From an uncultured Eubacteriales bacterium (GTDB taxonomy: Bacteria; Bacillota; Clostridia; Christensenellales; CAG-138): a stretch of DNA of 64,000 bases. Location: the NCBI GenBank assembly GCA_900542615.1, contig UQOG01000002.1, positions 11,718 through 75,717 of the forward strand, read 5' to 3'. Below the pieces are notes generated by a model. It did no database searches, was not told the DNA's origin, and saw nothing but the letters and a program-made list of their open reading frames with translations. Below are positions 7,330 to 57,489 of the stretch, piece by piece. Positions within the stretch are counted from its first letter, which is position 1. Every line of letters starts with the position of its first letter. Position numbers and translations under genes: made by a program.

Positions 7330-8217
7330 ATGGAAACATGGGAAACGCAGGTATTGCCCCTGCTCCCGCCTGATCTTGCCCGGGAGCTTCGGGCGGGGGA
7401 GCTGGCGGGGGCGGAGGAGATACGGATCCGGGTGAACCGGCCGGCCCAGGTGCTGGGCAAGCATCCGCGCCTGCTTGGATGGACGCCGGATCCACAGATG
7501 TGCCAGGCGGTGCTGCTGCGGCTGTGCAGGCAATCCATCTACGCCTATGGGCCGGAGCTGGCAGCCTGCTATATGACCCTGCCGGGCGGGGTGCGGGTAG
7601 GCCTGGCGGGCCGCATGGCGGGGGCGGGTGAGGAGGCCCGGCTGGTTACGGCTACGGGCTTCAACATCCGGCTGGCCCGGGCCATCCCGGGTTGCGCGGA
7701 CCCGCTGATGGGGCTATTGCTGGGCCCTGCGGGCCTTCGGAGCACCCTGCTGCTTTCCGCGCCGGGGGCGGGCAAAACCACTATGCTGCGGGATGCGGCA
7801 AGGCAGCTGTCCCTGCGGGGGATGAAGGTATGCCTTGCGGACGAACGCAGGGAGCTGGCCGGGTGCGACGACGGGGTGCCTACGTTGGATGTGGGGCCCT
7901 GCACGGATGTGTTGGAGGGCTGCAAAAAGGCCCGGGCCATGTCCCTGCTGGTGCGGGGCATGGGGCCGGAGGTGCTGGTCACGGACGAATTGGCGGGCCA
8001 GGGCGACGCGGAAGCGGTGATGGAGGCGGCAGGGTGCGGGGTACGGATCCTTGCCAGCGCCCACGGGGACGGCTGGGAGGACCTTAAGCGGCGCAAAAGC
8101 CTGTTTCCGCTCATCCAAACCGGGTGCTTCACCCAGGTGATCCTGCTGCGCCGGCAGGCGGGCCATCCGCCCCGGCTGGAGACGGTATATCGGGCAAAGG
8201 AGGAACCATGCGGTTGA
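7330..8217 (+). CDS. spoIIIAA: stage III sporulation protein AA (secretion ATPase)
   Basis: 295 aa. Walker A LLLSAPGAGKTTMLRD. First gene of an eight-gene spoIIIA-ordered cluster. Confidence 0.9.
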   Translation: METWETQVLPLLPPDLARELRAGELAGAEEIRIRVNRPAQVLGKHPRLLGWTPDPQMCQAVLLRLCRQSIYAYGPELAACYMTLPGGVRVGLAGRMAGAGEEARLVTATGFNIRLARAIPGCADPLMGLLLGPAGLRSTLLLSAPGAGKTTMLRDAARQLSLRGMKVCLADERRELAGCDDGVPTLDVGPCTDVLEGCKKARAMSLLVRGMGPEVLVTDELAGQGDAEAVMEAAGCGVRILASAHGDGWEDLKRRKSLFPLIQTGCFTQVILLRRQAGHPPRLETVYRAKEEPCG

Positions 8218-8708
8218 TGGCAGCCCTTGCGGCGTTGGGGCTGGGCATGTTCGTCGGGTACGCCAAAGGCTACAGGGTGCAGGCAAGAGCCCAGGCACTT
8301 AGCGGTTTTTTGGAGGAACTGCCCAGGCTGCTTTTGCAGATGGAATATAAGACCCTGCCTCTTGCCCAGCTGGTCCGGGCCCTGGGGCGGGCGGAGGGCA
8401 TATTGGGGGCATTCTGGACGGCCTTTGGGGCGGCGCTGCCGGAACGGGGGATCGAGGGGGCTTGGAACCAAGCCCTGGAGGAAGCGGCGCCCTATGGCCT
8501 TTTGGAAGGGGATGTGGCCATTTTGCAGGGGATGGGGCCCATGCTTGCCTATCCGGAGGCAGAGGGGCGCAAGCGGTCCGCCCAAGGGCTGCTGGCGGAG
8601 CTTTCGGAACAGCGGGAAGCCTTGCGGCGGGAGCAGGAGAAGCGGGGCAACCTATATGGCACGCTGGGCCTGCTCATGGGGCTGGCGCTGGCCATATTGA
8701 TCCTATAG
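8208..8708 (+). CDS. spoIIIAB: stage III sporulation protein AB
   Basis: Starts MRLMAALAALGLGMFVGYAKGY with an N-terminal TM helix and has a C-terminal TM helix. ATG 8208 with an AAGGAGG SD, overlapping the spoIIIAA end. Position in the operon supports the call. Confidence 0.85.
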   Translation: MRLMAALAALGLGMFVGYAKGYRVQARAQALSGFLEELPRLLLQMEYKTLPLAQLVRALGRAEGILGAFWTAFGAALPERGIEGAWNQALEEAAPYGLLEGDVAILQGMGPMLAYPEAEGRKRSAQGLLAELSEQREALRREQEKRGNLYGTLGLLMGLALAILIL

Positions 8709-8726
8709 CTACGAAAGGAAAGAAAG

Positions 8727-8924
8727 ATGGGGATCGAAATCGTATTGAAGATCGCGGGCATCGGGATGCTGGTGGCGGTGAGTTGCCAGCTGCTCAAGCA
8801 AACGGGCCGGGACGATATCGCCATGCTGGCCGCCCTGATGGGGCTGGTGATCGTATTGGGAATGGTTCTGGGGGAGATCGGCTCGCTGTTTGAGGAAGTG
8901 AAGCGGATCTTCGGGCTGTATTGA
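8727..8924 (+). CDS. spoIIIAC: stage III sporulation protein AC
   Basis: 65-aa two-TM protein, MGIEIVLKIAGIGMLVAVSCQLLKQTGRDD... Typical SpoIIIAC size and sequence. Confidence 0.9.
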   Translation: MGIEIVLKIAGIGMLVAVSCQLLKQTGRDDIAMLAALMGLVIVLGMVLGEIGSLFEEVKRIFGLY

Positions 8925-8926
8925 CC

Positions 8927-9319
8927 ATGACGGTATTCAAGCTGGCAGGGCTTGCGTTGATCGCCCTTTGCGGGGCGGTGCTGCTGCGGGCCTACAAGCC
9001 GGAGATGGGCTTGCAATTGAGCATTGCCGCCTGCTTTTTGCTGCTCAGCTACGCCCTTACGGACATCGCCGCCATACGCCAGGCGGTGGAAGGGGTGACC
9101 AGCCGGTTCGGCTTGGGGGTGGAGCAGCTCAAGCTGGCGTTCAAGGTGCTGGGGATCGCCTATGTGGCCCAGTTTGCCGCGGAGGCCTGTAGGGACGCAG
9201 GGGAGAGCGCCATCGCCTCTAAGGTGGAATTGGCGGGCCGGGTGATGATCGTGGCGGCGGCGCTGCCGGCGCTGTTGGCGGTGCTGGAGCTGCTGCGGGG
9301 CCTGCTGGAGGGCGTATGA
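8927..9319 (+). CDS. spoIIIAD: stage III sporulation protein AD
   Basis: About 130-aa four-TM protein containing KVLGIAYVAQFAAEACRDAGESAIASKVELAGRV. ATG 8927; the track start, TTG 8921, is the alternative. Confidence 0.9.
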   Translation: MTVFKLAGLALIALCGAVLLRAYKPEMGLQLSIAACFLLLSYALTDIAAIRQAVEGVTSRFGLGVEQLKLAFKVLGIAYVAQFAAEACRDAGESAIASKVELAGRVMIVAAALPALLAVLELLRGLLEGV

Positions 9320-10464
9320 AAAAAGGCGTATGGCTGGTTTTGGCGTTGGCGCTGCTTTGGCCCTGCAAGGCCATGGCCCTGGAGGCGGAGCTGGAAAGCG
9401 TCCTGGACGCTACCCAGGCCCAATATGATCTGTCCGCCTGGGAGGAACGCTATGGCAGGCTGCCTGAACAGGTACAGGAATTGTGGGGACACGGGGATGT
9501 CAACAGCCTGATCGCCGGCTTTGCCCGGGGCGAGGGCGTGGAAGCAAAGGGCCTGTTGGAGGGGCTGTGGGAGACGGTAAAGGCCACCATCGCCCAGGGG
9601 CTTGGCTCCCTGGCCTCCATTTTGGGCATCGCCCTGCTGACCGGCCTGTTGGACGCCCTTCTGGGGGAAAAGCAAACCAATGTGAAGGAGATCGCCTCCT
9701 TCCTATGCTACGGCGTATGCGTTATGCTCCTTAGCGCCCTGTTGACCGATCAGCTGTCCATGACCGTAGGGGCTATCCAGGAGCTGTGCGGGCTGTTGGA
9801 GACGGTCTCCCCCCTGCTGGTCACCCTGCTGGCCGCCATTGGGGCCACGGCGTCGGCGGGGATGGTGCAGCCTATGTTCGTGCTGCTCAGCGGCACCGTA
9901 GCCAAGGTGGTCCAGGGGGTGTTGCTCCCCGGGGTCATGGGGGCGGGGGTATTGTATATTGTGGGGGCCTTGGCGGGCCGGGAACAGGTGAGCCACCTGG
10001 CGAATACCATCAAGTCCTTCGTCAAGTGGGCCATGGGAGGGATCACCACCATTTTCCTGGGGGCCATGGCCCTGGGGGGGATGAGCGCCGGCGGGGTGGA
10101 CAGCATCAGCTTCCGCACCATGAAGTATACCCTGGATAAATCCCTGCCCCTGGTTGGCGGGGTGGTGGCGGGAAGCCTGGACAGCGTGCGGGGCTGTACC
10201 ATCCTGATCAAGAACGCCGCAGGCATGGCGGGGGTGGTGATGGCCCTGGGTGTGGTGCTGATGCCCTTGCTCCAATTGATGGGCATGAGCCTTGCCTTTC
10301 AGTTGACCGGCGCCCTATGCGCCCAGGTGTCCGACAGCCGGATGCCCAAGATGTTGGCCGGGATGGCGGACATTTGCAGGTATATGTTTGCCTGTGCCGG
10401 CATGGTGGCCCTGATGTTCGTGCTGACCATGGGGCTGGTGGTGGCATTGGGCAGCGGAGGATAG
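9316..10464 (+). CDS. spoIIIAE: stage III sporulation protein AE
   Basis: 382 aa with a signal peptide (MKKGVWLVLALALLWPCKAMA) and multiple TM helices. ATGA overlap with spoIIIAD. Confidence 0.9.
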   Translation: MKKGVWLVLALALLWPCKAMALEAELESVLDATQAQYDLSAWEERYGRLPEQVQELWGHGDVNSLIAGFARGEGVEAKGLLEGLWETVKATIAQGLGSLASILGIALLTGLLDALLGEKQTNVKEIASFLCYGVCVMLLSALLTDQLSMTVGAIQELCGLLETVSPLLVTLLAAIGATASAGMVQPMFVLLSGTVAKVVQGVLLPGVMGAGVLYIVGALAGREQVSHLANTIKSFVKWAMGGITTIFLGAMALGGMSAGGVDSISFRTMKYTLDKSLPLVGGVVAGSLDSVRGCTILIKNAAGMAGVVMALGVVLMPLLQLMGMSLAFQLTGALCAQVSDSRMPKMLAGMADICRYMFACAGMVALMFVLTMGLVVALGSGG

Positions 10465-10468
10465 GCGG

Positions 10469-10645
10469 ATGGGCTGGCTATACGGGATTGTGCTCAAGGT
10501 AAGCGCAGCGGCGGTTTTGCGATGCATCCTGGGATTCCTGCTTCCGGCGGGTTCCCTGCAAAAAAGCGCGGGCCGCGGAATCGACCTGATTCTATTTTGG
10601 ATGTTGGCGGAGGGGATCCTTTCCGCCTGGCAGGAGGCGCCATGA
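10469..10645 (+). CDS. spoIIIAF: SpoIIIAF-like protein, N-terminal membrane segment only (58 aa)
   Basis: Not in the ORF track because it is under 60 aa. ATG 10469 lies 8 nt after a GGAGG SD, and TGA 10643..10645 overlaps the spoIIIAG ATG. The translation is MGWLYGIVLKVSAAAVLRCILGFLLPAGSLQKSAGRGIDLILFWMLAEGILSAWQEAP. LLPAGSLQKSAG resembles LLPSSSMQKYAK of B. subtilis SpoIIIAF, recalled from memory. Confidence 0.55.
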   Translation: MGWLYGIVLKVSAAAVLRCILGFLLPAGSLQKSAGRGIDLILFWMLAEGILSAWQEAP

Positions 10646-11226
10646 AGGAGTGGAAGGCTGTGACAGAACCCCTGGGCCGCTTGGCCGCCCGGATGAAACA
10701 GGATAAGCGAATCGAGCTGGCGGTCTATGTGCTGCTGGCCGCCCTGGGCATTTTGGTGTACACCGCGTCCTGCGGCAAGGAGCCGGAGGCGGCCGTTCAG
10801 ACGAGCCTTGTGGAGGCCCCGGCGGAAACCGCTGTGGAGGAACGGCTGGAGGAGGTTCTATCCTGCATCCGGGGGGCGGGGAAGGTGCGGGTGATGATCA
10901 CCTACGATACCGGCGCCCAGGTGGTGCCGGCCATGCGGACGGAGGTGCAGAGCAGCACCCAGGAAAGCGCGGGCTCAGATACGAGCAGCGTCCATGAGGA
11001 CCGCACCGAGGTATCCGCGCCCGCCACCCTCAACGACGAGGCCCTGGTGCTGACGGAAAAGACGCCGGCCGTGCGGGGGGTGATCGTGATTGCGGAGGGA
11101 GCGGCGGACATTGCGGTGAAGCTGCGGCTGCAAAGCGCGGTGCAGACGGTGTTGGGGATCGACCCGGGGTGCATCGAGGTGTTTGAAATGAGCCGGCCGG
11201 CTTATGAAGAAGGAGGGGAAGGATGA
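10642..11226 (+). CDS. spoIIIAG: stage III sporulation protein AG
   Basis: Starts MKEWK, with one TM helix. The C-terminal ring-building domain reads VRVMITYDTG...VRGVIVIAEGAADIAVKLRLQSAVQTVLGIDPGCIEVFEM. Confidence 0.85.
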   Translation: MKEWKAVTEPLGRLAARMKQDKRIELAVYVLLAALGILVYTASCGKEPEAAVQTSLVEAPAETAVEERLEEVLSCIRGAGKVRVMITYDTGAQVVPAMRTEVQSSTQESAGSDTSSVHEDRTEVSAPATLNDEALVLTEKTPAVRGVIVIAEGAADIAVKLRLQSAVQTVLGIDPGCIEVFEMSRPAYEEGGEG

Positions 11227-11762
11227 AGATGAAAGAGAAGGGTTTTATCAGAAAATATGCGGTATTGCTGGTGGCGGGGGCCCTGCTGGTGGGGGCGGTG
11301 GTGTTGAATATCCGGCTCAACCGGCAGGCGGATCCCGTTGCGGAGGATGCGGAAGCCGCCTGGGATATGGAGCAAGCGGCGGCGGACGAAGCGGAGATGG
11401 AGCAGGCGGAAACGGATTATTTTGCCGCCTTCCGGGCAGAGCGGGACGCGGTAAGGGCGACGGAGATCGAATATTTGGACGAGGTGATCGCCGTATCCTA
11501 CAGCGACGCCGAAACCCTGGCGGACGCCCAGGCCCAGAAGCTGGCCTTGGTGGAGAACATGGAGGCGGAATTCACCATCGAGAACCTGCTGCGGGCCAAA
11601 GGCTTTTCGGATGCGGCGGTCACCTTCCATAAGGGCTCGGTGAACGTGGTGGTGGATTGTCCGCAGCTGAGCAGCGAGCAGGTGGCCCAGATCCTGGATG
11701 TGGTGACCAGGGAAACCGGGGAAAGCGCGGATAATATCAAGATCCTGTCCGAAGCCCAGTAA
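11223..11762 (+). CDS. spoIIIAH: stage III sporulation protein AH
   Basis: 179 aa with an N-terminal TM helix, an acidic linker and a C-terminal domain (TIENLLRAKGFSDAAVTFHKGSVNVVV). Last gene of the operon, with an ATGA overlap with AG. Confidence 0.8.
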   Translation: MKMKEKGFIRKYAVLLVAGALLVGAVVLNIRLNRQADPVAEDAEAAWDMEQAAADEAEMEQAETDYFAAFRAERDAVRATEIEYLDEVIAVSYSDAETLADAQAQKLALVENMEAEFTIENLLRAKGFSDAAVTFHKGSVNVVVDCPQLSSEQVAQILDVVTRETGESADNIKILSEAQ

Positions 11763-23683: not shown

Positions 23684-24940
23684 ATGAACAGAGGCAGGGG
23701 GAGCGCCGTTGTGCGCGGAATTGGTCTGCTGGTCTGCTTGCTGCTGATCAGCTTTAACTATGGGGAGCCGGCGCGGCTCGTCCGGGAGCTGCCGAGCCAG
23801 GCCTACATCGGATCGGACAGCGAAAGCCAGCTGGCTGGCATTGGCGCGCCCTTTTCCCTTCGGTATGGGCAAAACCAGCAGGCCGTATCCCAGGATCTAT
23901 CCCAGACCCTTTCCCAGGACGCGGCTGCCGGGTATTCGGTGCAGGTGGACCTATTCGGCCTGATCCCCCTGAAAAAGATCAGCTTTTATACCCGGGATTC
24001 CATCTGGGTGATGCCGGGCGGCTATTCGGTAGGCGTCACCCTGTATACCAAGGGAGCGTTGGTGGTGGGGCTGGGGGAATTTGAGACCCTGGATGGAACC
24101 GCCGTATGCCCGGCCCAGGCGGCGGGGATCCGGGTGGGGGACGTGATCCTGGGGGTAAACGGCACGGAGGTAAAGGATGCGGCCCATTTGACGGCCTTGT
24201 GCAACGAAACCCAAGGGGCGGTAGACCTGCGCCTTGCAAGGGGCGAGGAGACCTTGGAGGTGACCATCCAGCCGGCGGCAGACCGGCAGGATGGGATCTA
24301 TAAAATGGGCATGTGGGTGCGGGACAGTACGGCGGGCATCGGGACCTTATCCTTTTACGCCATGGATACCCTGCGTTACGGCGCATTGGGGCATCCCATC
24401 ACGGATGTGGATACGGGGTCGTTGCTGTCTGTGAAGACCGGGGAGATCGTGCAATCCAATGTGGTGGGCATCGCCCAGGGAAGCAGCGGCCTCCCGGGGG
24501 AGATCCAGGGCGCCTTCAGCACCGTCAGCCAGCGGTTGGGCACGCTGGAAACCAACAGCAATATCGGCATATATGGGCAGCTTTATTCTCCACTGGAAAA
24601 CCCGCTGTATCCGGAGGGGGTATTGCTTGCTTATCCGGAGGAGATTCATACGGGCGCCGCACAGCTATTGACTACGGTGGATGAAAACGGGGTACAGGCC
24701 TATGATTGCCAAATCATAAAAACCTACCCGCAGACCAGCGCCGCCGCCAAGGGGATGGTCGTCCAGATCACCGACCCAAGGCTCATCGAAAAGACGGGCG
24801 GGATCGTGCAAGGCATGAGCGGCAGCCCCATTGTGCAGGATGGGAAGCTGGCAGGCGCCGTAACCCACGTATTTGTCAACGATCCCCTTCGGGGATATTG
24901 CATTTACGCCCTCTGGATGTACCAACAAACCCTGAATTAG
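23684..24940 (+). CDS. spoIVB: SpoIVB peptidase (S55)
   Basis: 418 aa with a signal anchor, a PDZ domain (GIRVGDVILGVNGTEVKD) and the S55 catalytic region GMSGSPIVQDGKLAGAVTHVFVNDP. GAGGTG SD. Confidence 0.9.
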   Translation: MNRGRGSAVVRGIGLLVCLLLISFNYGEPARLVRELPSQAYIGSDSESQLAGIGAPFSLRYGQNQQAVSQDLSQTLSQDAAAGYSVQVDLFGLIPLKKISFYTRDSIWVMPGGYSVGVTLYTKGALVVGLGEFETLDGTAVCPAQAAGIRVGDVILGVNGTEVKDAAHLTALCNETQGAVDLRLARGEETLEVTIQPAADRQDGIYKMGMWVRDSTAGIGTLSFYAMDTLRYGALGHPITDVDTGSLLSVKTGEIVQSNVVGIAQGSSGLPGEIQGAFSTVSQRLGTLETNSNIGIYGQLYSPLENPLYPEGVLLAYPEEIHTGAAQLLTTVDENGVQAYDCQIIKTYPQTSAAAKGMVVQITDPRLIEKTGGIVQGMSGSPIVQDGKLAGAVTHVFVNDPLRGYCIYALWMYQQTLN

Positions 24941-24985
24941 TATAATAAATTATACAAAAAATAACATACATATATTCTAGATAGC

Positions 24986-25023
24986 AGCTGGAAATATCAT
25001 AATAATGGGATGTATTTCCAGCT
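24986..25023 (+). terminator. hairpin / weak terminator candidate after spoIVB
   Basis: Stem AGCTGGAAATA / TATTTCCAGCT (11 bp) with a 16-nt loop. The T-rich tract follows only after 9 nt. Confidence 0.4.
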
Positions 25024-25051
25024 TAGCTCTATATTTTTGTATAAAACCTAC

Positions 25052-25070
25052 TGTCGTCCCTTTGTATAAT
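25052..25070 (+). promoter_or_regulatory. near-0A-box plus extended -10-like element upstream of spo0A
   Basis: TGTCGTC (25052..25058) matches 6 of 7 positions of the TGTCGAA 0A box. It is followed by TGTATAAT (25063..25070), which is TG-n-TATAAT-like. No convincing -35 element. Confidence 0.3.
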
Positions 25071-25185
25071 TCATGCGCAAAAACTGTCTATGCATTGCGC
25101 TTGCTTCCAGATTCTGCTATACTTATCCTGTAGCTTGTACGTTAATAGTTTTTTCTTTTTTCCTTCCAGATCCTCTATTTACAAA

Positions 25186-25223
25186 ATAATTAAATATGTG
25201 GTATATAATTAAATATGTGGTAT
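25186..25223. repeat. perfect 19-bp tandem duplication (ATAATTAAATATGTGGTAT x2)
   Basis: Copies at 25186..25204 and 25205..25223 are identical and abut head to tail. The repeat ends 5 nt before the spo0A ATG. Confidence 0.9.
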
Positions 25224-25228
25224 TTGCT

Positions 25229-26017
25229 ATGAAACCTTATAGCTTGCTTATCATTACGGATAACGTAACTCTACGGGAAAGGCTGGAAACGTATTTCTCA
25301 TCCATTTCCCTGATTTCCCTGCTGCCTTCCGCAGTGGATGGACCATCCGGTGTGGTGCAGGCCAAGCTCAACGAACCCGATATGATGCTGCTGGATATGC
25401 TTATGCCCAAAATGGATGGCATCGCGGTGCTTCGGCGGCTACAGGCGGAAAATTGCTGTAAAAATACCCGCATATTCGCCTTGTCATCCATGAAGGGCGA
25501 GGAAGCCATCCAGCTGGGGGAGAGCTTAGGTGTTACCTATCAGATCCAAATGCCAACGGATGAAAGCCTGATTTTTAGCCGGATGATGGACTTTGCGCCG
25601 GATCGGGATGGGCGCGTTAAGCAATATCGCAACAGGATGCGGGAAAACGATTTGAATTTGCAGATTGACGAGGCGATTACTTTTCTGTTCCGGCATATGG
25701 GCTGCCCGGTGAACCTGGCCGGATATTATCAGGCGAAAACCGTTATTTCCTACTGTGTGCGCAATCGTGAAAGGGCCATTTTCCTTTCCAAGGAGGCATA
25801 TCCCTATGCCGCAAAAATCCATGGGGTAAACGCAAAGCAAATCGAACGGAATATCCGCAACCTCATCGAGGTCACCTGGACACGCGGCGATATGAAGGCC
25901 CAGCATAAGATCTTCGGCAACACCGTGGAAGACGAAAAATCCAGGCCCACCAATAAGGAGTTTATCGCAAACTTGACCCAGTATACCATTCGGCGTTTAC
26001 ATAAGACCCTGAGCTAA
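25229..26017 (+). CDS. spo0A: Spo0A-type sporulation response regulator (divergent)
   Basis: Receiver domain (LLIITDN, LLDMLMPKMDG) plus a Spo0A_C-type DNA-binding domain (AKQIERNIRNLIEVTWTRGD...SRPTNKEFIANL). Canonical position downstream of spoIVB. Start ATG 25229 has no SD; in-frame ATG 25196 is the alternative. Confidence 0.8.
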   Translation: MKPYSLLIITDNVTLRERLETYFSSISLISLLPSAVDGPSGVVQAKLNEPDMMLLDMLMPKMDGIAVLRRLQAENCCKNTRIFALSSMKGEEAIQLGESLGVTYQIQMPTDESLIFSRMMDFAPDRDGRVKQYRNRMRENDLNLQIDEAITFLFRHMGCPVNLAGYYQAKTVISYCVRNRERAIFLSKEAYPYAAKIHGVNAKQIERNIRNLIEVTWTRGDMKAQHKIFGNTVEDEKSRPTNKEFIANLTQYTIRRLHKTLS

Positions 26018-26499
26018 AAATAGGCCCGCTTGCAAACGGAGAGAAACCAGCAAAGCAGTTATGCTTTTGCATGGTTTCCTTGCAAGCATAGGGAATGGGC
26101 ACAGTTCTATGCTATGGCATTACTTTTCTTATATTTCAGCCGGACGCATTAGAATTTATTGATATAATTGAAATAAACATCTAATAATATGCTGTAATTT
26201 CATATTGCGAAAAAAATATAGCCGCGTTATATGAAAATAAAAAACGATTTGGGTGGTATGCTTTTCTTCCGAAGCGCATACCCATTTCTAGGTATGCTAT
26301 ATCCCGGGCTTCATGCGGCCCGCCGTAACAAGCGGGCAAAGAAAAGCTGCGGCGGTTCAGTATCGTATTCATCAATAGATAAAGGCAAAATGATGTATGT
26401 GCTCACCTATATGCTGCCCTCGATTTAATCCAGCGCCAACAACGGTAGAATTGGCGCTGGCGCACATATATTGCCGGGCCGGGGCGTATATATGGAAGC

Positions 26500-27075
26500 A
26501 TGAATATACAACATGCCAGCCGAATGCGGCTCGATAAGGGGCCTATGGAGCTCCTTGCCCAGCATCCATATTTGTTGCTTTACCTGGCCTTCTTTTTGGT
26601 GGCCGGGGTGGCTGCGGGCGTTTCCACCGCCAGGATGGCTCAGGAGGCGGAGCCCATACTGCCAAAGGCGTTTTCCCAGCTGCAAAACGGCACTTATCAG
26701 CTTTGGCCGGGGCTATTGCACGCCGTTGCGCTGAATGGTTTCCTGTATATGTTAGCCTTTGCGCCCGGGCTGTGGCCGCCGCTGCTGGTGGCCAGCGGGG
26801 TCCCGGTGGCATTAAAGGGGTTCTTTATGGGGGCGGGCATTTTTTATCTGGAGCAGGAGCTGGGGCTTGCGGGGCTTGGCTGGAGTATCCCCCTTTGCGT
26901 GGCGCCGGGGCTGTTCCTGGTGGCGGGGGTGATCCTGCGCGTCCTGTCGGATGTGAGCGATCGGGCGGGGCAGCCTGTGGACGGCCTGCCCCAGCGGGCG
27001 GCGGGTTTTGTGCTGCTGTGCATCCTGCTGGAAAGCGGGGCGGCGCCGGCGGCCCTGCGGGCATGGCTCAAATGA
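26500..27075 (+). CDS. SpoIIM-like (DUF95/stage II sporulation protein M family) membrane protein
   Basis: Four to five TM helices. The pattern LLHAVALNGFLYMLAFAPGLWPPLLVASGVPVALKGFFMGAGIFYL resembles the SpoIIM core. Start uncertain (26500, 26524 or 26545). Confidence 0.5.
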   Translation: MNIQHASRMRLDKGPMELLAQHPYLLLYLAFFLVAGVAAGVSTARMAQEAEPILPKAFSQLQNGTYQLWPGLLHAVALNGFLYMLAFAPGLWPPLLVASGVPVALKGFFMGAGIFYLEQELGLAGLGWSIPLCVAPGLFLVAGVILRVLSDVSDRAGQPVDGLPQRAAGFVLLCILLESGAAPAALRAWLK

Positions 27076-32468: not shown

Positions 32469-32890
32469 AAACCACCATGGAAGAGATCAAGCAGATGGTG
32501 GACGTAAATACCGTGGTAGGGACCCCCATTCTAACGGGCGCGGAGACCATGATCCTGCCCGTATCCAAGGTGAGCGTAGGCTTCTTTTCCGGAGGCGGGG
32601 AATACGGCGCCGGGAAGCCGGAAAAGGGCATGTGCCCCATCGCAAAAAGCGGGGCGGAGCTATCGGCGGACCAGGCGGAAACCGGCTATCCCTTTGCGGG
32701 CGCGTCCATTGGCGGCATGACCCTGACGCCTTTGGCATTTTTGTCCGTGACCAATGGGAATGTGAAGGTGCTGCCCGCCCAGAGCAATACCACCCTGGAC
32801 CGGGCCATCGAGCTCATGCCCGAGGCCATCACCACCCTGGAGCAGGCCATCTCCGGCTTATGTAAGAAGGGGGCCGAAGAAGCGAAATGA
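32441..32890 (+). CDS. gerW: GerW/YtfJ-family spore protein
   Basis: Contains MAHPIENIMKTTMEEIKQMVDVNTVVGTPILTGAETMILPVSKVSVGFFSGGGEYG and a second half with GASIGGMTLTPLAFLSV. Confidence 0.85.
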   Translation: MAHPIENIMKTTMEEIKQMVDVNTVVGTPILTGAETMILPVSKVSVGFFSGGGEYGAGKPEKGMCPIAKSGAELSADQAETGYPFAGASIGGMTLTPLAFLSVTNGNVKVLPAQSNTTLDRAIELMPEAITTLEQAISGLCKKGAEEAK

Positions 32891-34014
32891 GGGGGCGGCA
32901 AGTAAGGCGGTATTTTGCAGGCGCCATCGCCGCCCTGTGTTTCTGGCTTGCCCTGCCCGCCATGGCGGCGCAGGAGCCGGTATCCAGCGCGGCGGGGGCC
33001 ATCCTGATGGAGGCGACCACCGGGAAGGTGCTCTACGCCAAGGACGCCCATAAGCAGCTGCCCATGGCCAGCACCACCAAGATCATGACGGCCCTGCTGG
33101 CCATCGAGCAAGGGGACCTGGACGAGCTGGTCACCACGGACGCCAGCGCCTATGGGGTGGAGGGCTCCAGTATGTATTTGCAGCTGGAGGAGACGATTAG
33201 CCTGCGGGATCTGCTCTATGGGTTGATGCTGCCCTCCGGGAACGATGCGGCGGTGGCCATCGCGGTACACATCGGCCATGGCGTGGAGCAGTTCGCCGAT
33301 ATGATGAACCAGCGGGCAAAGTCCCTGGGGGCGAAAAACACCTATTTTGTCACCCCCAACGGCCTGCCGGACCCGGACCATTATACCACCGCCTATGACC
33401 TTGCCTGCATCGCGGCGGCGGCCATGCAAAACCCCACCTTCCGGGAGATCGTATCCGCCCAGTATTACCGCACCAGCACCGGGGCGGTGCAGCGGACGTT
33501 TAAGAATAAGAACAAGATCCTGTGGAATTACGAGGGGGGAAACGGGGTTAAGACCGGCTATACCAAGGCGGCAGGCCGGTGCCTGGTGTTTGCGGCGGAG
33601 CGGGATGGAATGCAGCTGGTGGGGGTGCTGCTCAATTGCAACGACATGTTCGAGGAAGCGGAAACGCTGCTGGACTACGGCATGGAGCATTATGAGATGG
33701 TTCCCCTGGTAAAGGGCGGCCAGGCGGTGGCCAACCTGTACGTGGCGGATGGGATGAAAAACCGGTTGGCACTTTGCCCGGGGGAAGATATAATGGTACC
33801 AGTGGAAAAGGATGGCAGCAGCCTGTATAAGACCCGGGTGCTGCTGCCGGATATGGTAACGGCGCCCATAGAAGCCGGGCAGGTCTGCGGGGAAGTGGAG
33901 GTCCTGGAGGAGGACGGCACCCTTCGGGCCAAATTCGACCTGCTTGCCATGGAGGATGTGGATCAGGCCACGGTGGGCTTCTATATCCAAAAGCTGTTCC
34001 GGAATATGACGTAG
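32887..34014 (+). CDS. D-alanyl-D-alanine carboxypeptidase (PBP5/S11 family, catalytic motifs intact)
   Basis: Signal peptide present. Carries SxxK (MASTTKIMT), SxN (LPSGNDAA) and KTG (GVKTGYT), plus a C-terminal PBP5_C domain. ATGA overlap with gerW. Confidence 0.88.
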   Translation: MRGRQVRRYFAGAIAALCFWLALPAMAAQEPVSSAAGAILMEATTGKVLYAKDAHKQLPMASTTKIMTALLAIEQGDLDELVTTDASAYGVEGSSMYLQLEETISLRDLLYGLMLPSGNDAAVAIAVHIGHGVEQFADMMNQRAKSLGAKNTYFVTPNGLPDPDHYTTAYDLACIAAAAMQNPTFREIVSAQYYRTSTGAVQRTFKNKNKILWNYEGGNGVKTGYTKAAGRCLVFAAERDGMQLVGVLLNCNDMFEEAETLLDYGMEHYEMVPLVKGGQAVANLYVADGMKNRLALCPGEDIMVPVEKDGSSLYKTRVLLPDMVTAPIEAGQVCGEVEVLEEDGTLRAKFDLLAMEDVDQATVGFYIQKLFRNMT

Positions 34015-34068
34015 GCGGTTCCAGGTTGCGCTTTGTTGCCTTAGGCGGAGGCTGCTTGGAGGACGTAA

Positions 34069-34090
34069 GCCCTGCCCAGGCAGGGCATTT
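34069..34090 (+). terminator. weak terminator candidate after the carboxypeptidase gene
   Basis: Stem GCCCTGCC / GGCAGGGC with a very short loop, followed by ATTT. Confidence 0.35.
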
Positions 34091-34146
34091 CGGTGCGGCC
34101 GGGGGTAGGCGGCGCCAAGGATGTACATACGGAGGGGGAAATCGGG

Positions 34147-34866
34147 ATGCGGCTGCAAAAGTATATGGCGGAGGCGGGGGTGGCTTCCCGCCGCAAGTGC
34201 GAAGATCTGATCCAGGCGGGCCGGGTCAAGGTCAACGGCCAGGTGGCCATCCTGGGGACCTGCGTGGAGCCGCAACAGGACCTGGTGGAGCTGGATGGGA
34301 AGCCCCTTGGCGAAAGCCAACGGAAGGTGACGGTGATCCTCCATAAGCCGAGGGGGGTCATGTGTACGGCCCAGGATCCTCAGGGAAGGCCCACGGTGGG
34401 GGAATATGTACGGGACCTGCCGGCGCGGGTATACAACGCGGGCCGGCTGGATTACGATTCCGAAGGGCTGCTGGTAATGACCAACGATGGTGAGCTGGCC
34501 TATCGGCTCACCCATCCCAAGTTTTGCATGGATAAGACCTATTCCGCCATCTGCGACGGGCTGCTGACAAAGGAACAGATCGCCGCGCTGGAGCAGGGAG
34601 TCCTTTTGGAGGATGGGCCTACCCACCCTGCCAAGGTGGAGGAGGTGTATCGGCTGCGCAATGGCAATACCGCCTTTAACATCACCATTCACGAGGGCCG
34701 GAACCGGCAGGTGCGGCGGATGCTGGAGGCGGTGGGCCATGAGACGCTGGCCCTCAAGCGGGTGGCGCTGGGGCCCCTGCGGCTGGGAGACCTGCCCAGC
34801 GGGGATTACCGGCCCCTGACGGACCAGGAATGGGACGCCCTGCACGCATGGCTGGAAAGCCATTAG
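34147..34866 (+). CDS. rluB: pseudouridine synthase, RsuA/RluB family
   Basis: S4 domain (MRLQKYMAEAGVASRRKCEDLIQAGRVKVNG) and catalytic motif AGRLDYDSEGLLVMTNDG. GGAGGGGGA SD before ATG 34147. Confidence 0.85.
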   Translation: MRLQKYMAEAGVASRRKCEDLIQAGRVKVNGQVAILGTCVEPQQDLVELDGKPLGESQRKVTVILHKPRGVMCTAQDPQGRPTVGEYVRDLPARVYNAGRLDYDSEGLLVMTNDGELAYRLTHPKFCMDKTYSAICDGLLTKEQIAALEQGVLLEDGPTHPAKVEEVYRLRNGNTAFNITIHEGRNRQVRRMLEAVGHETLALKRVALGPLRLGDLPSGDYRPLTDQEWDALHAWLESH

Positions 34867-34926
34867 CAAAAAATATGGCAAACCCGAAAGGGATTAAAAT
34901 ATCATTGGTAAAATTGACAAATCTCC

Positions 34927-53588: not shown

Positions 53589-56301
<2,713 letters not shown>

Positions 56302-57147: not shown

Positions 57148-57459
57148 TTATCCAAATAATAAAAAGGAAACAAGCCCTATTGTGGCAACGAGGCTGCTGG
57201 CAAGCCCTAAAAACAATATTTTTTTCTTTTTTGCAATCCTGTATTGATACCAAGAAATCCCCGCCAAATAGCCAAAGAGAATGGTGCAATCATCAAAGAA
57301 AGGCTCCCCTTGCATTGCTTTTATTACGGAAAATAAACCGCATAAGCAACAAACCATTGCGCCGCCGAAACCAAAACTGTTGCGCATTTCCTGGCGCTCC
57401 CGCTCATCAAAGTATTGGTTTTCCGCTCTGCTTTTTTCAAGTATCGCTTCTTTTTGCAT
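57148..57459 (-). CDS. small membrane protein, DUF6442-like partner of the XRE regulator
   Basis: Starts MQKEAILEKSRAENQYFDERERQ, followed by three hydrophobic helices. ATG 57459 is preceded by an AGGAGG SD. The N-terminal motif recalls DUF6442 family members, from memory. Confidence 0.65.
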   Translation of the reverse strand: MQKEAILEKSRAENQYFDERERQEMRNSFGFGGAMVCCLCGLFSVIKAMQGEPFFDDCTILFGYLAGISWYQYRIAKKKKILFLGLASSLVATIGLVSFLLFG

Positions 57460-57489
57460 GGTATGCCTCCTAAAACTATGCAAAGTTTT

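What the first reader, a model, noticed from the sequence alone, without database searches (positions are those of the whole stretch)
24941..26100. The spo0A slot is occupied by a compositionally atypical, divergent Spo0A-type gene with two conserved receiver residues replaced
Seen: the gene downstream of spoIVB encodes a receiver domain plus a Spo0A_C domain, but four things are unusual.
1. I aligned it without gaps to B. subtilis Spo0A as I remember it. The first Asp of the acidic pair is Thr (LLIITDN versus VCVADDN). The conserved beta5 Lys is Met (YQIQMPTD versus YFILKPFD). The phospho-acceptor Asp (LLDMLMP) and the Ser/Thr position (ALSS) are kept.
2. The usually near-invariant DNA-recognition signature SRVERAIRHAIEVAW reads KQIERNIRNLIEVTW.
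3. My hand counts of 60-nt lines give 43-53% GC inside the gene and about 28% in the 5' flank. Neighbouring genes give about 60-68%.
4. No Shine-Dalgarno precedes ATG 25229.

Established knowledge: the acidic pocket and the Lys are required for Mg2+ binding and for the phosphorylation-driven switch in receiver domains.

Inference: the gene may be a xenologous in-situ replacement, may be under relaxed selection, or may be an atypical, possibly phosphorylation-independent master regulator.
Basis: partly seen in the sequence, partly recalled or inferred. Interest (0 to 1): 0.6.

Follow-up and report, generated by a model that had tools for sequence, protein, structure and literature searches.

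The report
Spo0A with a degenerate phosphorylation pocket
The sporulation master-regulator gene of this uncultured gut clostridium (Candidatus Pelethousia) is the genuine, vertically inherited spo0A, but it has lost two of the five residues that normally let phosphorylation switch such proteins on; related bacteria conserve the same loss, so sporulation there is probably triggered in a non-standard way.

Summary
All four observations hold. The CDS 25229-26017 encodes a receiver plus a Spo0A_C domain. It has Thr10 for the first acidic-pair Asp and Met108 for the beta5 Lys. I add a third change: Gln105 for the aromatic switch residue. Asp11, Asp56 and Ser86 are kept. Gene GC is 0.50 against 0.57-0.64 in neighbours, and there is no Shine-Dalgarno.

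- It is not a foreign replacement. The order nadK-argR-recN-spoIVB-spo0A-deoB-dacB is kept, in whole or in the part a contig covers, in 24 related genome loci. The Spo0A tree matches the neighbour-gene tree.
- It is not decaying. dN/dS is about 0.035, and the receiver domain is the best conserved part within the genus.

It is the positional spo0A ortholog of a Candidatus Pelethousia species and carries a pseudo-receiver. The T10/M108 state is fixed across the genus and a sister lineage. It belongs to one clade of Spo0A orthologs that all lack both residues. Some members have also lost the phospho-acceptor Asp56 (to Asn or Gly) while keeping spoIVB.

The window keeps spoIIIAA-AH, spoIVB and ylmC. 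Most likely this is a Spo0A no longer gated by the canonical phospho-switch. That step is inferred, not shown. I found no prior description.

The parts
25229..26017 (+). spo0A ortholog CDS (262 aa plus stop): receiver domain (about residues 1-122), helical linker, Spo0A_C DNA-binding domain (about residues 145-262)
   Evidence: Pfam Response_reg 46.5 bits and Spo0A_C 88.4 bits. TIGR02875 scores 146 bits, below its 200-bit cutoff. AF2 model pLDDT 84.8. Sits in the spoIVB-adjacent slot in 24 loci.
25256..25258 (+). codon ACG = Thr10, at the position of the first acidic-pair Asp (DD1)
   Evidence: Alignments. Fixed in window, L001-L005, L007 and P0002-P0008.
25394..25396 (+). codon GAT = Asp56, the retained phospho-acceptor position, in the conserved LLDMLMPxMDG motif
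   Evidence: Replaced by Asn in L019/L020/L022 and by Gly in L024.
25541..25552 (+). codons for Q105-I-Q-M108: the aromatic switch residue is replaced by Gln and the beta5 Lys by Met
   Evidence: Lies just after beta5 (E102-107) in the model.
25835..25879 (+). recognition-helix segment KQIERNIRNLIEVTW (residues 203-217)
   Evidence: Aligned to SRVERAIRHAIEVAW of 1fc3/1lq1. E206, R207, N208, I209, R210, I213, E214 and W217 are invariant in 14 relatives.
25095..25123 (+). promoter-like element TTGCGC-N17-TATACT with TGC directly before the -10 hexamer, conserved upstream of spo0A in all Pelethousia loci
   Evidence: Conserved blocks GCATTGCGC and GATTCTGCTATACT with identical spacing in window, L050, L001-L004, and partly in L005. 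Not reported by the consensus scan, so its function is inferred from conservation only.
24986..25023 (+). hairpin after spoIVB (11-bp arms AGCTGGAAATA / TATTTCCAGCT), a probable spoIVB terminator that separates the two transcription units
   Evidence: Fold -18.4 kcal/mol, z = -2.67. Arms conserved in L050.
25186..25223 (+). exact 19-nt tandem duplication (ATAATTAAATATGTGGTAT, two copies) in the 5' leader, ending 5 nt before the start codon
   Evidence: One copy in 4 and two copies in 2 of 6 conspecific metagenome contigs that are 98-99.6% identical.
24941..25228 (+). 288-nt AT-rich (0.29 GC) spoIVB-spo0A intergenic region. The part downstream of the promoter-like element is an unstructured leader without a Shine-Dalgarno.
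   Evidence: Leader fold z = 0.26. About 88 nt in L001-L004.
26024..26100 (+). strong hairpin just after the stop codon, a probable transcription terminator although no T-run follows
   Evidence: -32.6 kcal/mol, z = -3.85, 0 of 200 shuffles fold as well.
23684..24940 (+). spoIVB (S55 signalling protease), the conserved upstream neighbour
   Evidence: TIGR02860 scores 420 bits against a 305-bit cutoff. Pfam Peptidase_S55 271 bits.
7330..11762 (+). spoIIIAA-AH operon. Context evidence that the organism keeps sporulation-specific machinery.
   Evidence: NCBIfam hits to AA, AD, AE and AG. Pfam hits to AB, AC and AH. ORF list.

Best explanation
Shown:
- The gene is the vertically inherited, positional ortholog of spo0A in a species of Candidatus Pelethousia, an uncultured gut clostridium related to MAGs labelled Christensenellaceae.
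- Its protein keeps the Spo0A fold and the Spo0A_C DNA-binding domain.
- Its receiver is a pseudo-receiver. The first acidic-pair Asp (DD1) is Thr10, Lys108 is Met, and the aromatic switch residue 105 is Gln. Asp11, Asp56 and Ser86 remain.
- This state arose on one ancient branch with roughly two-fold accelerated change. It has been held by strong purifying selection since then.
- It is shared, with different replacement residues, by a monophyletic group of Spo0A orthologs.

Inferred:
- DD1 and Lys108 are each needed for sporulation in C. difficile. Sister lineages have discarded Asp56 itself while keeping spoIVB and an intact Spo0A_C.
- So the protein is most likely no longer gated by the canonical Mg2+/phospho-Asp/Lys/Thr-Tyr switch.
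- It probably still controls entry into sporulation by binding DNA through Spo0A_C.
- Its activity would then be set by protein amount and/or by partner proteins that contact the highly conserved receiver surface. Amount could be controlled through its own conserved promoter and the unstructured AU-rich leader that lacks a Shine-Dalgarno. This is the way atypical response regulators such as Streptomyces WhiI work.
For: Domains and fold.

Substituted residues.

Conserved gene order in 24 loci.

Vertical descent: Spo0A and neighbour-gene trees are congruent. Clades A, B, C and D have 98-100% bootstrap support in both trees.

Rates: the Spo0A/neighbour distance ratio is 1.0 within the clade and about 2.2 against canonical relatives.

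Purifying selection: dN/dS is 0.035 against L050. dN is 0.15-0.17 against 0.20-0.25 for spoIVB and recN. The receiver is 83% identical within the genus. T10 and M108 are present in every cluster member inspected that covers them, and the exact protein occurs on 64 contigs.

Clade-wide trait: the active-site patterns (DD1, DD2, D56, S/T86, K108) are TDDSM, GDDSL, K(D/E)D(S/A)L, KDNTS and KNGTS in syntenic orthologs. All DD1-less and Lys-less forms are monophyletic among the 50%-identity representatives. DD1 and Lys are lost together: 18 of the 21 sequences with a non-basic residue at the Lys position also lack an acidic DD1. This matches the DD1-K covariation network reported for pseudo-receivers (PMC12632262).

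Functional weight of the residues: D10A, D11A, D56A and K108A each give severe sporulation defects in C. difficile Spo0A (bioRxiv 10.1101/2022.02.07.479450).

Sporulation genes in the window: spoIIIAA-AH, spoIVB and ylmC/ymxH are intact.

Single copy: the genome scan used motifs that canonical Spo0As of this order also carry. It found one locus per genome, including the complete chromosome OY762936.1.
Against: - Asp56, Asp11 (the residue that binds the metal directly), Ser86 and the LLDxxMPxxDG loop are strictly conserved in the window's own clade. That would be expected if some phosphorylation still occurs. Substitutions at DD, T or K do not always abolish phosphotransfer (PMC12632262).
- No biochemical data exist.
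- No cultured representative exists, so sporulation in this genus is unproven. Cultured Christensenella species are described as non-spore-forming (PMC11536998).
- The rest of the genome could not be searched for a second, differently patterned spo0A or for orphan kinases.
- The trees are NJ only.
- The large GC3 deficit in this species is not explained by the model.
Confidence: 0.6

Rival explanations
1. It is a less efficient but still phosphorylation-dependent Spo0A. Asp56 is still phosphorylated by orphan kinases. Asp11 binds the metal directly, and other residues compensate for Thr10 and Met108. Regulation is then canonical in logic.
For: Asp11, Asp56, Ser86, Pro109 and the LLDMLMPxMDG loop are invariant in the TDDSM clade. 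The receiver is more conserved than the DNA-binding domain. DD1 binds the metal only through water, and substitutions at DD, T or K do not always abolish the chemistry (PMC12632262).
Against: K108A and D10A alone give severe sporulation defects in C. difficile. The aromatic switch residue is also lost. The related clade, which shares the loss of DD1 and Lys, went on to lose Asp56 itself (L019, L020, L022, L024) while keeping spoIVB and Spo0A_C.
Confidence: 0.28
2. It is a xenologous replacement. A foreign or intra-genus spo0A allele recombined into the slot, which would explain the low GC and the AT-rich flanks.
For: GC is 0.50 and GC3 0.63, against GC3 0.75-0.80 in the neighbours. In the closest species, spo0A has the same GC3 as its neighbours, so the anomaly is new to this species. 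The flanking intergenic regions are long and AT-rich. Synonymous divergence from L006 is higher in spo0A (dS 1.21) than in deoB and dacB (about 0.6).
Against: Gene order and tree congruence. The nearest sequences are all Pelethousia. DNA identity to L006 is equal in the gene and its neighbours. orf191 has the same high dS with normal GC3. No flanking repeats or mobile-element traces were found. A distant donor is excluded. Only exchange with an unsampled, lower-GC congener remains possible, and that would not explain T10/M108, which the whole genus shares.
Confidence: 0.05
3. The gene is under relaxed selection or is an incipient pseudogene in a lineage that is losing sporulation.
For: It scores below the Spo0A equivalog cutoff (146 against 200 bits). 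The spoIIIA proteins also score below their cutoffs. Cultured Christensenella are non-spore-formers. There is no Shine-Dalgarno.
Against: The ORF is intact in the window, in the full-length relatives aligned and in the six conspecific contigs checked. The exact protein is on record on 64 contigs. dN/dS is 0.035. Spo0A is more conserved than recN, spoIVB, nadK and dacB within the genus. The promoter-like element is conserved.
Confidence: 0.02
4. It is a repurposed regulator. The lineage no longer forms spores, and this Spo0A-derived protein now controls another programme, for example stationary-phase metabolism, without needing the phosphorelay.
For: Spo0A has pleiotropic, non-sporulation roles in other species (text). 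No cultured spore-forming representative is known. The recognition helix is altered at non-core positions.
Against: The sporulation-specific genes spoIVB and spoIIIAA-AH are intact next to it. spoIVB is under purifying selection (dN/dS about 0.11-0.12).
Confidence: 0.08

Closest known systems
Canonical Spo0A (B. subtilis, Geobacillus, C. difficile; NCBIfam TIGR02875; PDB 1qmp, 5wq0, 1fc3, 1lq1)
   Same: Receiver plus Spo0A_C architecture. Length and residue numbering are as in C. difficile. It sits in the spoIVB-adjacent locus within nadK-argR-recN-spoIVB-spo0A. It keeps the D56 loop LLDxxMPxxDG, the ERxIRxxIExxW recognition-helix core and the RPTNxEFI motif. The receiver model superposes on solved Spo0A receivers at TM 0.9.
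   Different: Thr10 replaces Asp10, Met108 replaces Lys108, and Gln105 replaces the aromatic residue. It scores 146 bits against a 200-bit equivalog cutoff, so NCBI names cluster members only 'Spo0A C-terminal domain-containing protein'. The non-core recognition-helix residues differ (K203, Q204, N208, N211, L212, T216).
Streptomyces WhiI (an atypical, orphan response regulator of sporulation septation)
   Same: A developmental regulator whose receiver lacks the universally conserved Lys and one of the two adjacent Asp residues. The degenerate pocket is conserved in all orthologs. The protein is orphan, and control is by expression and by a partner (BldM heterodimer) rather than by phosphorylation (PMC4125116).
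   Different: The output domain is NarL/FixJ-type, not Spo0A_C. It acts in actinobacterial exospore formation. There is no homology beyond the receiver fold. The analogy is mechanistic only and was not tested here.
Pseudo-receiver domains and atypical response regulators, as defined by the 2025 J Bacteriol review (PMC12632262)
   Same: [quoted passage not shown] It is still recognised by PF00072 and sits phylogenetically among typical members of its own family.
   Different: I found no Spo0A-family example in that review or elsewhere in the searched literature. Non-acidic DD1 is the rarer kind of DD change, about 20% of pseudo-receivers.
Aspartate-less receiver (ALR) domains (PMC4395418)
   Same: The syntenic Spo0A orthologs of L019, L020 and L022 (Asp56 to Asn) and L024 (Asp56 to Gly) belong to the same derived clade and are ALRs.
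   Different: The window's protein keeps Asp56, so it is not itself an ALR.

Membership tests
Spo0A (sporulation transcription factor, TIGR02875 equivalog) | N-terminal receiver plus C-terminal Spo0A_C (PF08769) architecture | tested here: met
   Pfam Response_reg residues 7-115 (46.5 bits) and Spo0A_C residues 150-252 (88.4 bits, covering positions 1-103 of the 104-position model).
Spo0A (sporulation transcription factor, TIGR02875 equivalog) | Score at or above the curated equivalog cutoff (200 bits) | tested here: not met
   146.3 bits. Canonical-receiver relatives of the same order reach only 210-229 bits. L007 scores 147.5, L019 145.8 and L024 121.8.
Spo0A (sporulation transcription factor, TIGR02875 equivalog) | Positional orthology: directly downstream of spoIVB within argR-recN-spoIVB-spo0A | tested here: met
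   The same gene order is seen in the window and in L001-L024 where the contigs allow. The gene tree is congruent with the neighbour tree.
Spo0A (sporulation transcription factor, TIGR02875 equivalog) | Complete phospho-acceptor quintet D10, D11, D56, S/T86, K108 | tested here: not met
   T10 and M108 are substituted; D11, D56 and S86 are present.
Spo0A (sporulation transcription factor, TIGR02875 equivalog) | Spo0A recognition helix and C-terminal signature (ERxIRxxIExxW, xPTNxEFI) | tested here: met
   ERNIRNLIEVTW and RPTNKEFI are aligned to 1fc3/1lq1 and invariant in relatives. The non-core positions differ.
Spo0A (sporulation transcription factor, TIGR02875 equivalog) | Acts as the master activator of sporulation, binds 0A boxes, and is activated by Asp56 phosphorylation | not testable with these tools
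   Only context is available: spoIIIAA-AH, spoIVB and ylmC are intact in the window.
Pseudo-receiver / atypical response regulator (definition of PMC12632262) | Recognised as a receiver (PF00072) but lacking at least one of DD, D, T, K | tested here: met
   PF00072 hit. DD1 and K are absent. Definition quoted.
Pseudo-receiver / atypical response regulator (definition of PMC12632262) | Activity not controlled by Asp phosphorylation | not testable with these tools
   Inferred from the loss of D10 and K108, each required in C. difficile, and from the loss of Asp56 in sister lineages.
Aspartate-less receiver (ALR) | Phospho-acceptor Asp replaced | tested here: not met
   Asp56 is present in the window and the whole TDDSM clade. 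It is replaced only in L019, L020, L022 (Asn) and L024 (Gly).
Horizontally acquired gene / genomic islet | Phylogeny discordant with flanking genes, a donor-like closest relative, mobile-element traces | tested here: not met
   Trees are congruent. The closest relatives are all congeners. No flanking repeats were found. Only the atypical composition fits this family.

The most novel reading that the evidence does not exclude
In a whole clade of uncultured gut Clostridia, entry into endospore formation may have been uncoupled from His-Asp phosphotransfer. The clade comprises Ca. Pelethousia and related Christensenellaceae-labelled lineages, at least about 17 species-level genomes. Their only spo0A ortholog would be a phosphorylation-independent atypical response regulator. 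The DD1 Asp and Lys108 were lost once at the base of the clade, and Asp56 was later lost in some branches. Sporulation would then be triggered by Spo0A dosage and/or a partner protein. This would be the first exception to the rule that Spo0A is activated by Asp phosphorylation in all endospore formers.
Probability: 0.35. Interest if true: 0.8.

Novelty: new variant of a known kind. Interest (0 to 1): 0.6.

Why it matters
Spo0A is a standard example of a phosphorylation-activated master regulator. The literature states that a conserved Asp regulates it in all endospore formers (text). Here a prevalent gut lineage keeps sporulation genes: cluster members are seen on hundreds of metagenome contigs. 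Yet it conserves a Spo0A that lacks two residues individually required for sporulation in C. difficile, and its sister lineages lack the acceptor Asp altogether.

If these bacteria do sporulate, they show a second way to make the decision to sporulate. They also give a natural series, from TDDSM through K(D/E)DSL to KDNTS, for studying how a phospho-switch is replaced.

There are practical consequences as well. Equivalog-based annotation does not call this gene Spo0A. Genome-based predictors of sporulation that rely on that label could therefore misclassify the whole clade.

Tried and rejected
- Rfam scan of 24800-26600 at E up to 1: only two chance-level hits. No known RNA lies in the AT-rich flanks.
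- Consensus promoter and terminator scan: counts were no higher than in shuffles, and the scan did not pick up the conserved element. That element was found only by comparing loci.
- Repeat search for insertion signatures around the gene: only the 19-nt leader duplication, a 15-nt imperfect repeat and one 14-nt inverted repeat. No flanking direct repeats.
- Test for a recent allele import from a P. gallinarum-like donor: dS in spo0A is not lower than in its neighbours, it is higher. Rejected as positive evidence.
- Leaderless-mRNA idea: the TATAAT created by the duplication would start transcripts at an out-of-frame ATG, and most strains lack the duplication. Dropped.
- The 0A-box-like TGTCGTC at about 25053 is not conserved in L050 (TGCCGTC). 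Not pursued.
- dN/dS beyond the closest species: dS is saturated (infinite or above 1.5), so only dN comparisons were used.
- Literature searches for Spo0A with pseudo-receiver, atypical response regulator, Christensenellaceae or Pelethousia found no description of this variant. The Pelethousia protologue text was beyond the held portion of the paper.
Full report
WHAT IS THERE

The ORF list shows one long ORF at 25196-26017 (+). All orthologs begin MK(P/T/K)Y, which places the start at ATG 25229 and gives 262 aa. Pfam finds a receiver domain (46.5 bits, residues 7-115) and a full-length Spo0A_C domain (88.4 bits, residues 150-252). The NCBIfam Spo0A equivalog TIGR02875 matches end to end but scores only 146.3 bits against a curated cutoff of 200. 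The upstream gene is an unambiguous spoIVB, at 420 bits against a cutoff of 305. Upstream of spoIVB lie recN, argR and a NAD kinase. Downstream lie a 191-aa membrane protein with no family hit, phosphopentomutase, and a D-Ala-D-Ala carboxypeptidase-like gene.

CHECK OF THE FOUR OBSERVATIONS

1. Receiver residues.
- HMMER aligns the receiver without gaps to the solved Spo0A receiver 5wq0. LLIITDN lies over VAIADDN, LLDMLMP over LLDIIMP, and YQIQMPTD over YFMLKPFE. MAFFT alignments with 25 syntenic orthologs give the same columns.
- The first Asp of the acidic pair (DD1) is therefore Thr10 and the beta5 Lys is Met108. Asp11, Asp56 and Ser86 are present.
- The residue three positions before the Lys, which is the aromatic switch residue (Phe in 5wq0), is Gln105.
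- The numbering coincides with C. difficile Spo0A (D10, D11, D56, S86, K108).
- An AlphaFold model (mean pLDDT 84.8) has a regular (beta-alpha)5 receiver with these residues at the C-terminal ends of beta1, beta3, beta4 and beta5. Its best PDB matches are Spo0A receivers 5wq0 and 1qmp (TM 0.86-0.92, rmsd 1.2-1.4 A).

2. Recognition helix. It reads KQIERNIRNLIEVTW against SRVERAIRHAIEVAW. The core ER-IR--IE--W is kept. The Asn in ERNIR also occurs in relatives that have a canonical receiver.

3. Composition. The CDS has GC 0.498 and GC3 0.62. Neighbouring genes have GC 0.57-0.64 and GC3 0.72-0.80. The 5' intergenic region is 0.29 GC. Of 60 ORFs in the window (mean GC 0.605, sd 0.044), only one 111-aa ORF is lower.

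4. Shine-Dalgarno. No purine-rich motif precedes ATG 25229, while most of the other start regions printed show one.

WHOSE GENE IS IT

- The exact protein is on record on 64 contigs, and its 90%-identity cluster has 121 members. One member occurs on 781 contigs and is named by NCBI only 'Spo0A C-terminal domain-containing protein'.
- A scan of one genome per species returned Candidatus Pelethousia gallinarum (94% over the part on the contig), other Pelethousia MAGs (77-80%), a Christensenellaceae-labelled MAG (58%), and more distant Clostridia MAGs.
- NCBI taxonomy places Pelethousia in Eubacteriales incertae sedis.
- Conspecific contigs at 98-99.6% DNA identity occur in several metagenome assemblies.

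VERTICAL DESCENT, NOT REPLACEMENT

- In 24 loci the order nadK-argR-recN-spoIVB-spo0A-(orf191)-deoB-dacB is preserved, in whole or in the part that a contig covers.
- NJ trees of Spo0A and of concatenated RecN+SpoIVB+DeoB+ArgR recover the same four clades: A, the TDDSM clade (Pelethousia plus L007); B, the K..L clade (L009-L013); C, the KDNTS clade (L019, L022); and D, the canonical clade (L014-L018, L023). The labels give the residues at DD1, DD2, D56, S/T86 and K108.
- Each clade, and the split separating D from the rest, has 98-100% bootstrap support in both trees. B+C groups at 70% in the Spo0A tree and 100% in the neighbour tree.
- DNA identity to P. gallinarum is 84.8% inside spo0A and 84.3% across the 7.5 kb downstream.
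- Among 1.84 billion representatives the nearest sequences are all of this lineage.
- No flanking repeats or mobile-element traces were found.
- A distant donor is therefore excluded.

PURIFYING SELECTION, NOT DECAY

- Within the genus Spo0A is 77-79% identical. RecN is 68-71%, SpoIVB 71-74% and DacB 52-62%.
- The receiver domain (83%) is more conserved than the DNA-binding domain (74-77%).
- Against the closest species dN/dS is 0.035. For the other congeners dS is saturated, but dN (0.15-0.17) is below that of recN and spoIVB (0.20-0.25).
- By contrast, between clades Spo0A has diverged about 2.2 times faster than its neighbours, against 1.0 within the clade and 1.3 among canonical relatives.
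- This indicates an episode of rapid change on the stem branch, followed by constraint.

THE TRAIT IS CLADE-WIDE AND GOES FURTHER IN SISTER LINEAGES

Active-site patterns (DD1, DD2, D56, S/T86, K108) in syntenic orthologs:

| Loci | Pattern |
|---|---|
| window, L001-L005, L007 | T-D-D-S-M |
| L008 | G-D-D-S-L |
| L009-L013 | K-(D/E)-D-(S/A)-L |
| L019, L020, L022 | K-D-N-T-S |
| L024 | K-N-G-T-S |
| L014-L018, L021, L023 | D-D-D-S-K (canonical) |

- The alignment around position 56 is gapless (PDLVILNATMAGSDGIEIL against PDVLLLDIIMPHLDGLAVL). Several spo0A-slot orthologs have therefore lost the phospho-acceptor itself.
- L019, L020 and L022 still have an intact spoIVB upstream, and all of these orthologs keep a conserved Spo0A_C. 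L024's contig begins just upstream of spo0A, so spoIVB could not be checked there.
- In an NJ tree of the best 50%-identity representatives, all forms lacking DD1 and Lys make one clade.
- Among 146 representatives, 18 of the 21 with a non-basic residue at position 108 also lack an acidic DD1. Only 3 of the 117 with Lys lack it. These counts are not phylogenetically independent.
- Joint loss of DD1 and K matches the covariation network reported for pseudo-receivers (PMC12632262).

FUNCTIONAL WEIGHT OF THE RESIDUES

- In C. difficile Spo0A, D10A, D11A, D56A and K108A each cause severe sporulation defects and reduce dimerisation (bioRxiv 10.1101/2022.02.07.479450).
- A receiver that lacks any of the five residues is by definition a pseudo-receiver, and its protein an atypical response regulator (PMC12632262).
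- The same review cautions that substitutions at DD, T or K need not abolish phosphorylation. It also notes that DD1 contacts the metal only through water.

DOES THE ORGANISM SPORULATE

- The window carries ylmC/ymxH, a complete spoIIIAA-AH operon and spoIVB. spoIVB is under purifying selection (dN/dS about 0.11-0.12).
- No isolate exists. Cultured Christensenella species are described as non-spore-forming (PMC11536998).
- Sporulation is therefore likely but unproven.

EXPRESSION SIGNALS

- A hairpin follows spoIVB at 24986-25023 (z = -2.67).
- A promoter-like TTGCGC-N17-TATACT, with TGC directly before the -10 hexamer (25095-25123), is conserved with identical spacing in all Pelethousia loci, although synonymous sites are saturated.
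- The roughly 100-nt leader is AU-rich, unstructured (z = 0.26) and has no Shine-Dalgarno. Congeners L001-L004 have GGGAG there.
- An exact 19-nt tandem duplication ends 5 nt before the start codon. It is polymorphic among conspecific strains: one copy in 4 of 6 contigs and two copies in 2.
- A strong hairpin follows the stop codon (z = -3.85).

MOST LIKELY MECHANISM

Shown:
- This is the spo0A ortholog.
- It is vertically inherited and under strong constraint.
- It has an intact Spo0A_C and a pseudo-receiver.

Inferred:
- Activity is no longer gated by the canonical phospho-Asp/Lys108/Ser-aromatic switch.
- The conserved receiver acts as a dimerisation or partner-binding module.
- Control has shifted to protein amount and/or partner proteins, as in Streptomyces WhiI. 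WhiI likewise lacks the Lys and one Asp of the pair (PMC4125116).

The main rival (probability about 0.28) is that Asp56 is still phosphorylated, less efficiently. This fits the strict conservation of Asp11, Asp56, Ser86 and the D56 loop within the window's own clade.

WHAT REMAINS UNEXPLAINED

- In P. gallinarum, spo0A has the same GC3 (0.60-0.66) as its neighbours (0.60-0.69). In the window's species the neighbours are at 0.75-0.80 while spo0A stayed at 0.63.
- Synonymous divergence from L006 is higher in spo0A and orf191 (about 1.2) than in deoB and dacB (about 0.6).
- This neither supports a recent import from a gallinarum-like donor nor excludes exchange with an unsampled congener.
- It has no bearing on T10/M108, which the whole genus shares.

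NOVELTY

Literature searches found no description of a Spo0A ortholog with a degenerate or aspartate-less receiver. I rate it a new variant of a known kind: a Spo0A-family atypical response regulator in the native spo0A locus.

Noticed in passing
L019:10001-10780, L022:10001-10780, L020:1816-2574, L024:206-994: Spo0A orthologs whose phospho-acceptor Asp56 is replaced by Asn (L019, L020, L022) or Gly (L024). Lys108 is also replaced by Ser and DD1 by Lys. L019, L020 and L022 lie next to an intact spoIVB; L024's contig begins just upstream of spo0A. These are aspartate-less Spo0As.
   Followed up: partly
window 53592-55889 (+): A single 765-aa ORF matches ATP synthase F1 gamma (residues 1-290) and beta (residues 310-761). 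No stop codon separates atpG from atpD. An AAGGAGG plus ATG for atpD lies in frame inside the ORF. This is either a gamma-beta fusion or read-through, or a sequence error.
   Followed up: partly
window 25186-25223: An exact 19-nt tandem duplication lies in the spo0A leader 5 nt before the start codon. It is polymorphic among strains that are 98-99.6% identical (one copy in L051, L054, L055, L056; two copies in L052, L053 and the window).
   Followed up: yes
window 24941-25228 and 26018-26499: The intergenic regions on both sides of spo0A are long (288 and 482 nt) and AT-rich in this species. In P. gallinarum the upstream one is about 264 nt (L050) and the downstream one about 500 nt (L006). 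In Pelethousia L001-L004 they are only about 88 and about 50 nt. The 3' region is poorly conserved even against L006, and no Rfam family matches.
   Followed up: partly
window 26500-27075 (+): A 191-aa predicted membrane protein lies between spo0A and deoB. It is conserved in position in Pelethousia and L007 (37-47% identity) but has no Pfam or NCBIfam hit. It evolves fast (83% amino-acid identity and dS 1.2 against P. gallinarum).
   Followed up: partly
window 7330-11762 (+): The spoIIIAA, AD, AE and AG proteins all score below their NCBIfam equivalog cutoffs (for example AA 228 against 281, AE 188 against 247). As with Spo0A, the sporulation proteins of this lineage are generally divergent from the reference models.
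   Followed up: no
window 57148-57483 (-): The lowest-GC ORF of the window (GC 0.41, GC3 0.44, 111 aa). It matches DUF6442 (67 bits). It is compositionally more atypical than spo0A.
   Followed up: no
window 32686-34881 (-): A 731-aa ORF with typical composition and no Pfam or NCBIfam match.
   Followed up: no
P0024, P0029, P0041 (representatives): Spo0A-family representatives with an intact or Asn DD1 but Met in place of Lys108 (patterns DDDSM and NDDSM, motif AMPTP). They lie outside the DD1-less clade in the NJ tree. This suggests that Lys-to-Met has happened more than once in the family. Only 83 of the 146 best representatives keep the full quintet.
   Followed up: partly
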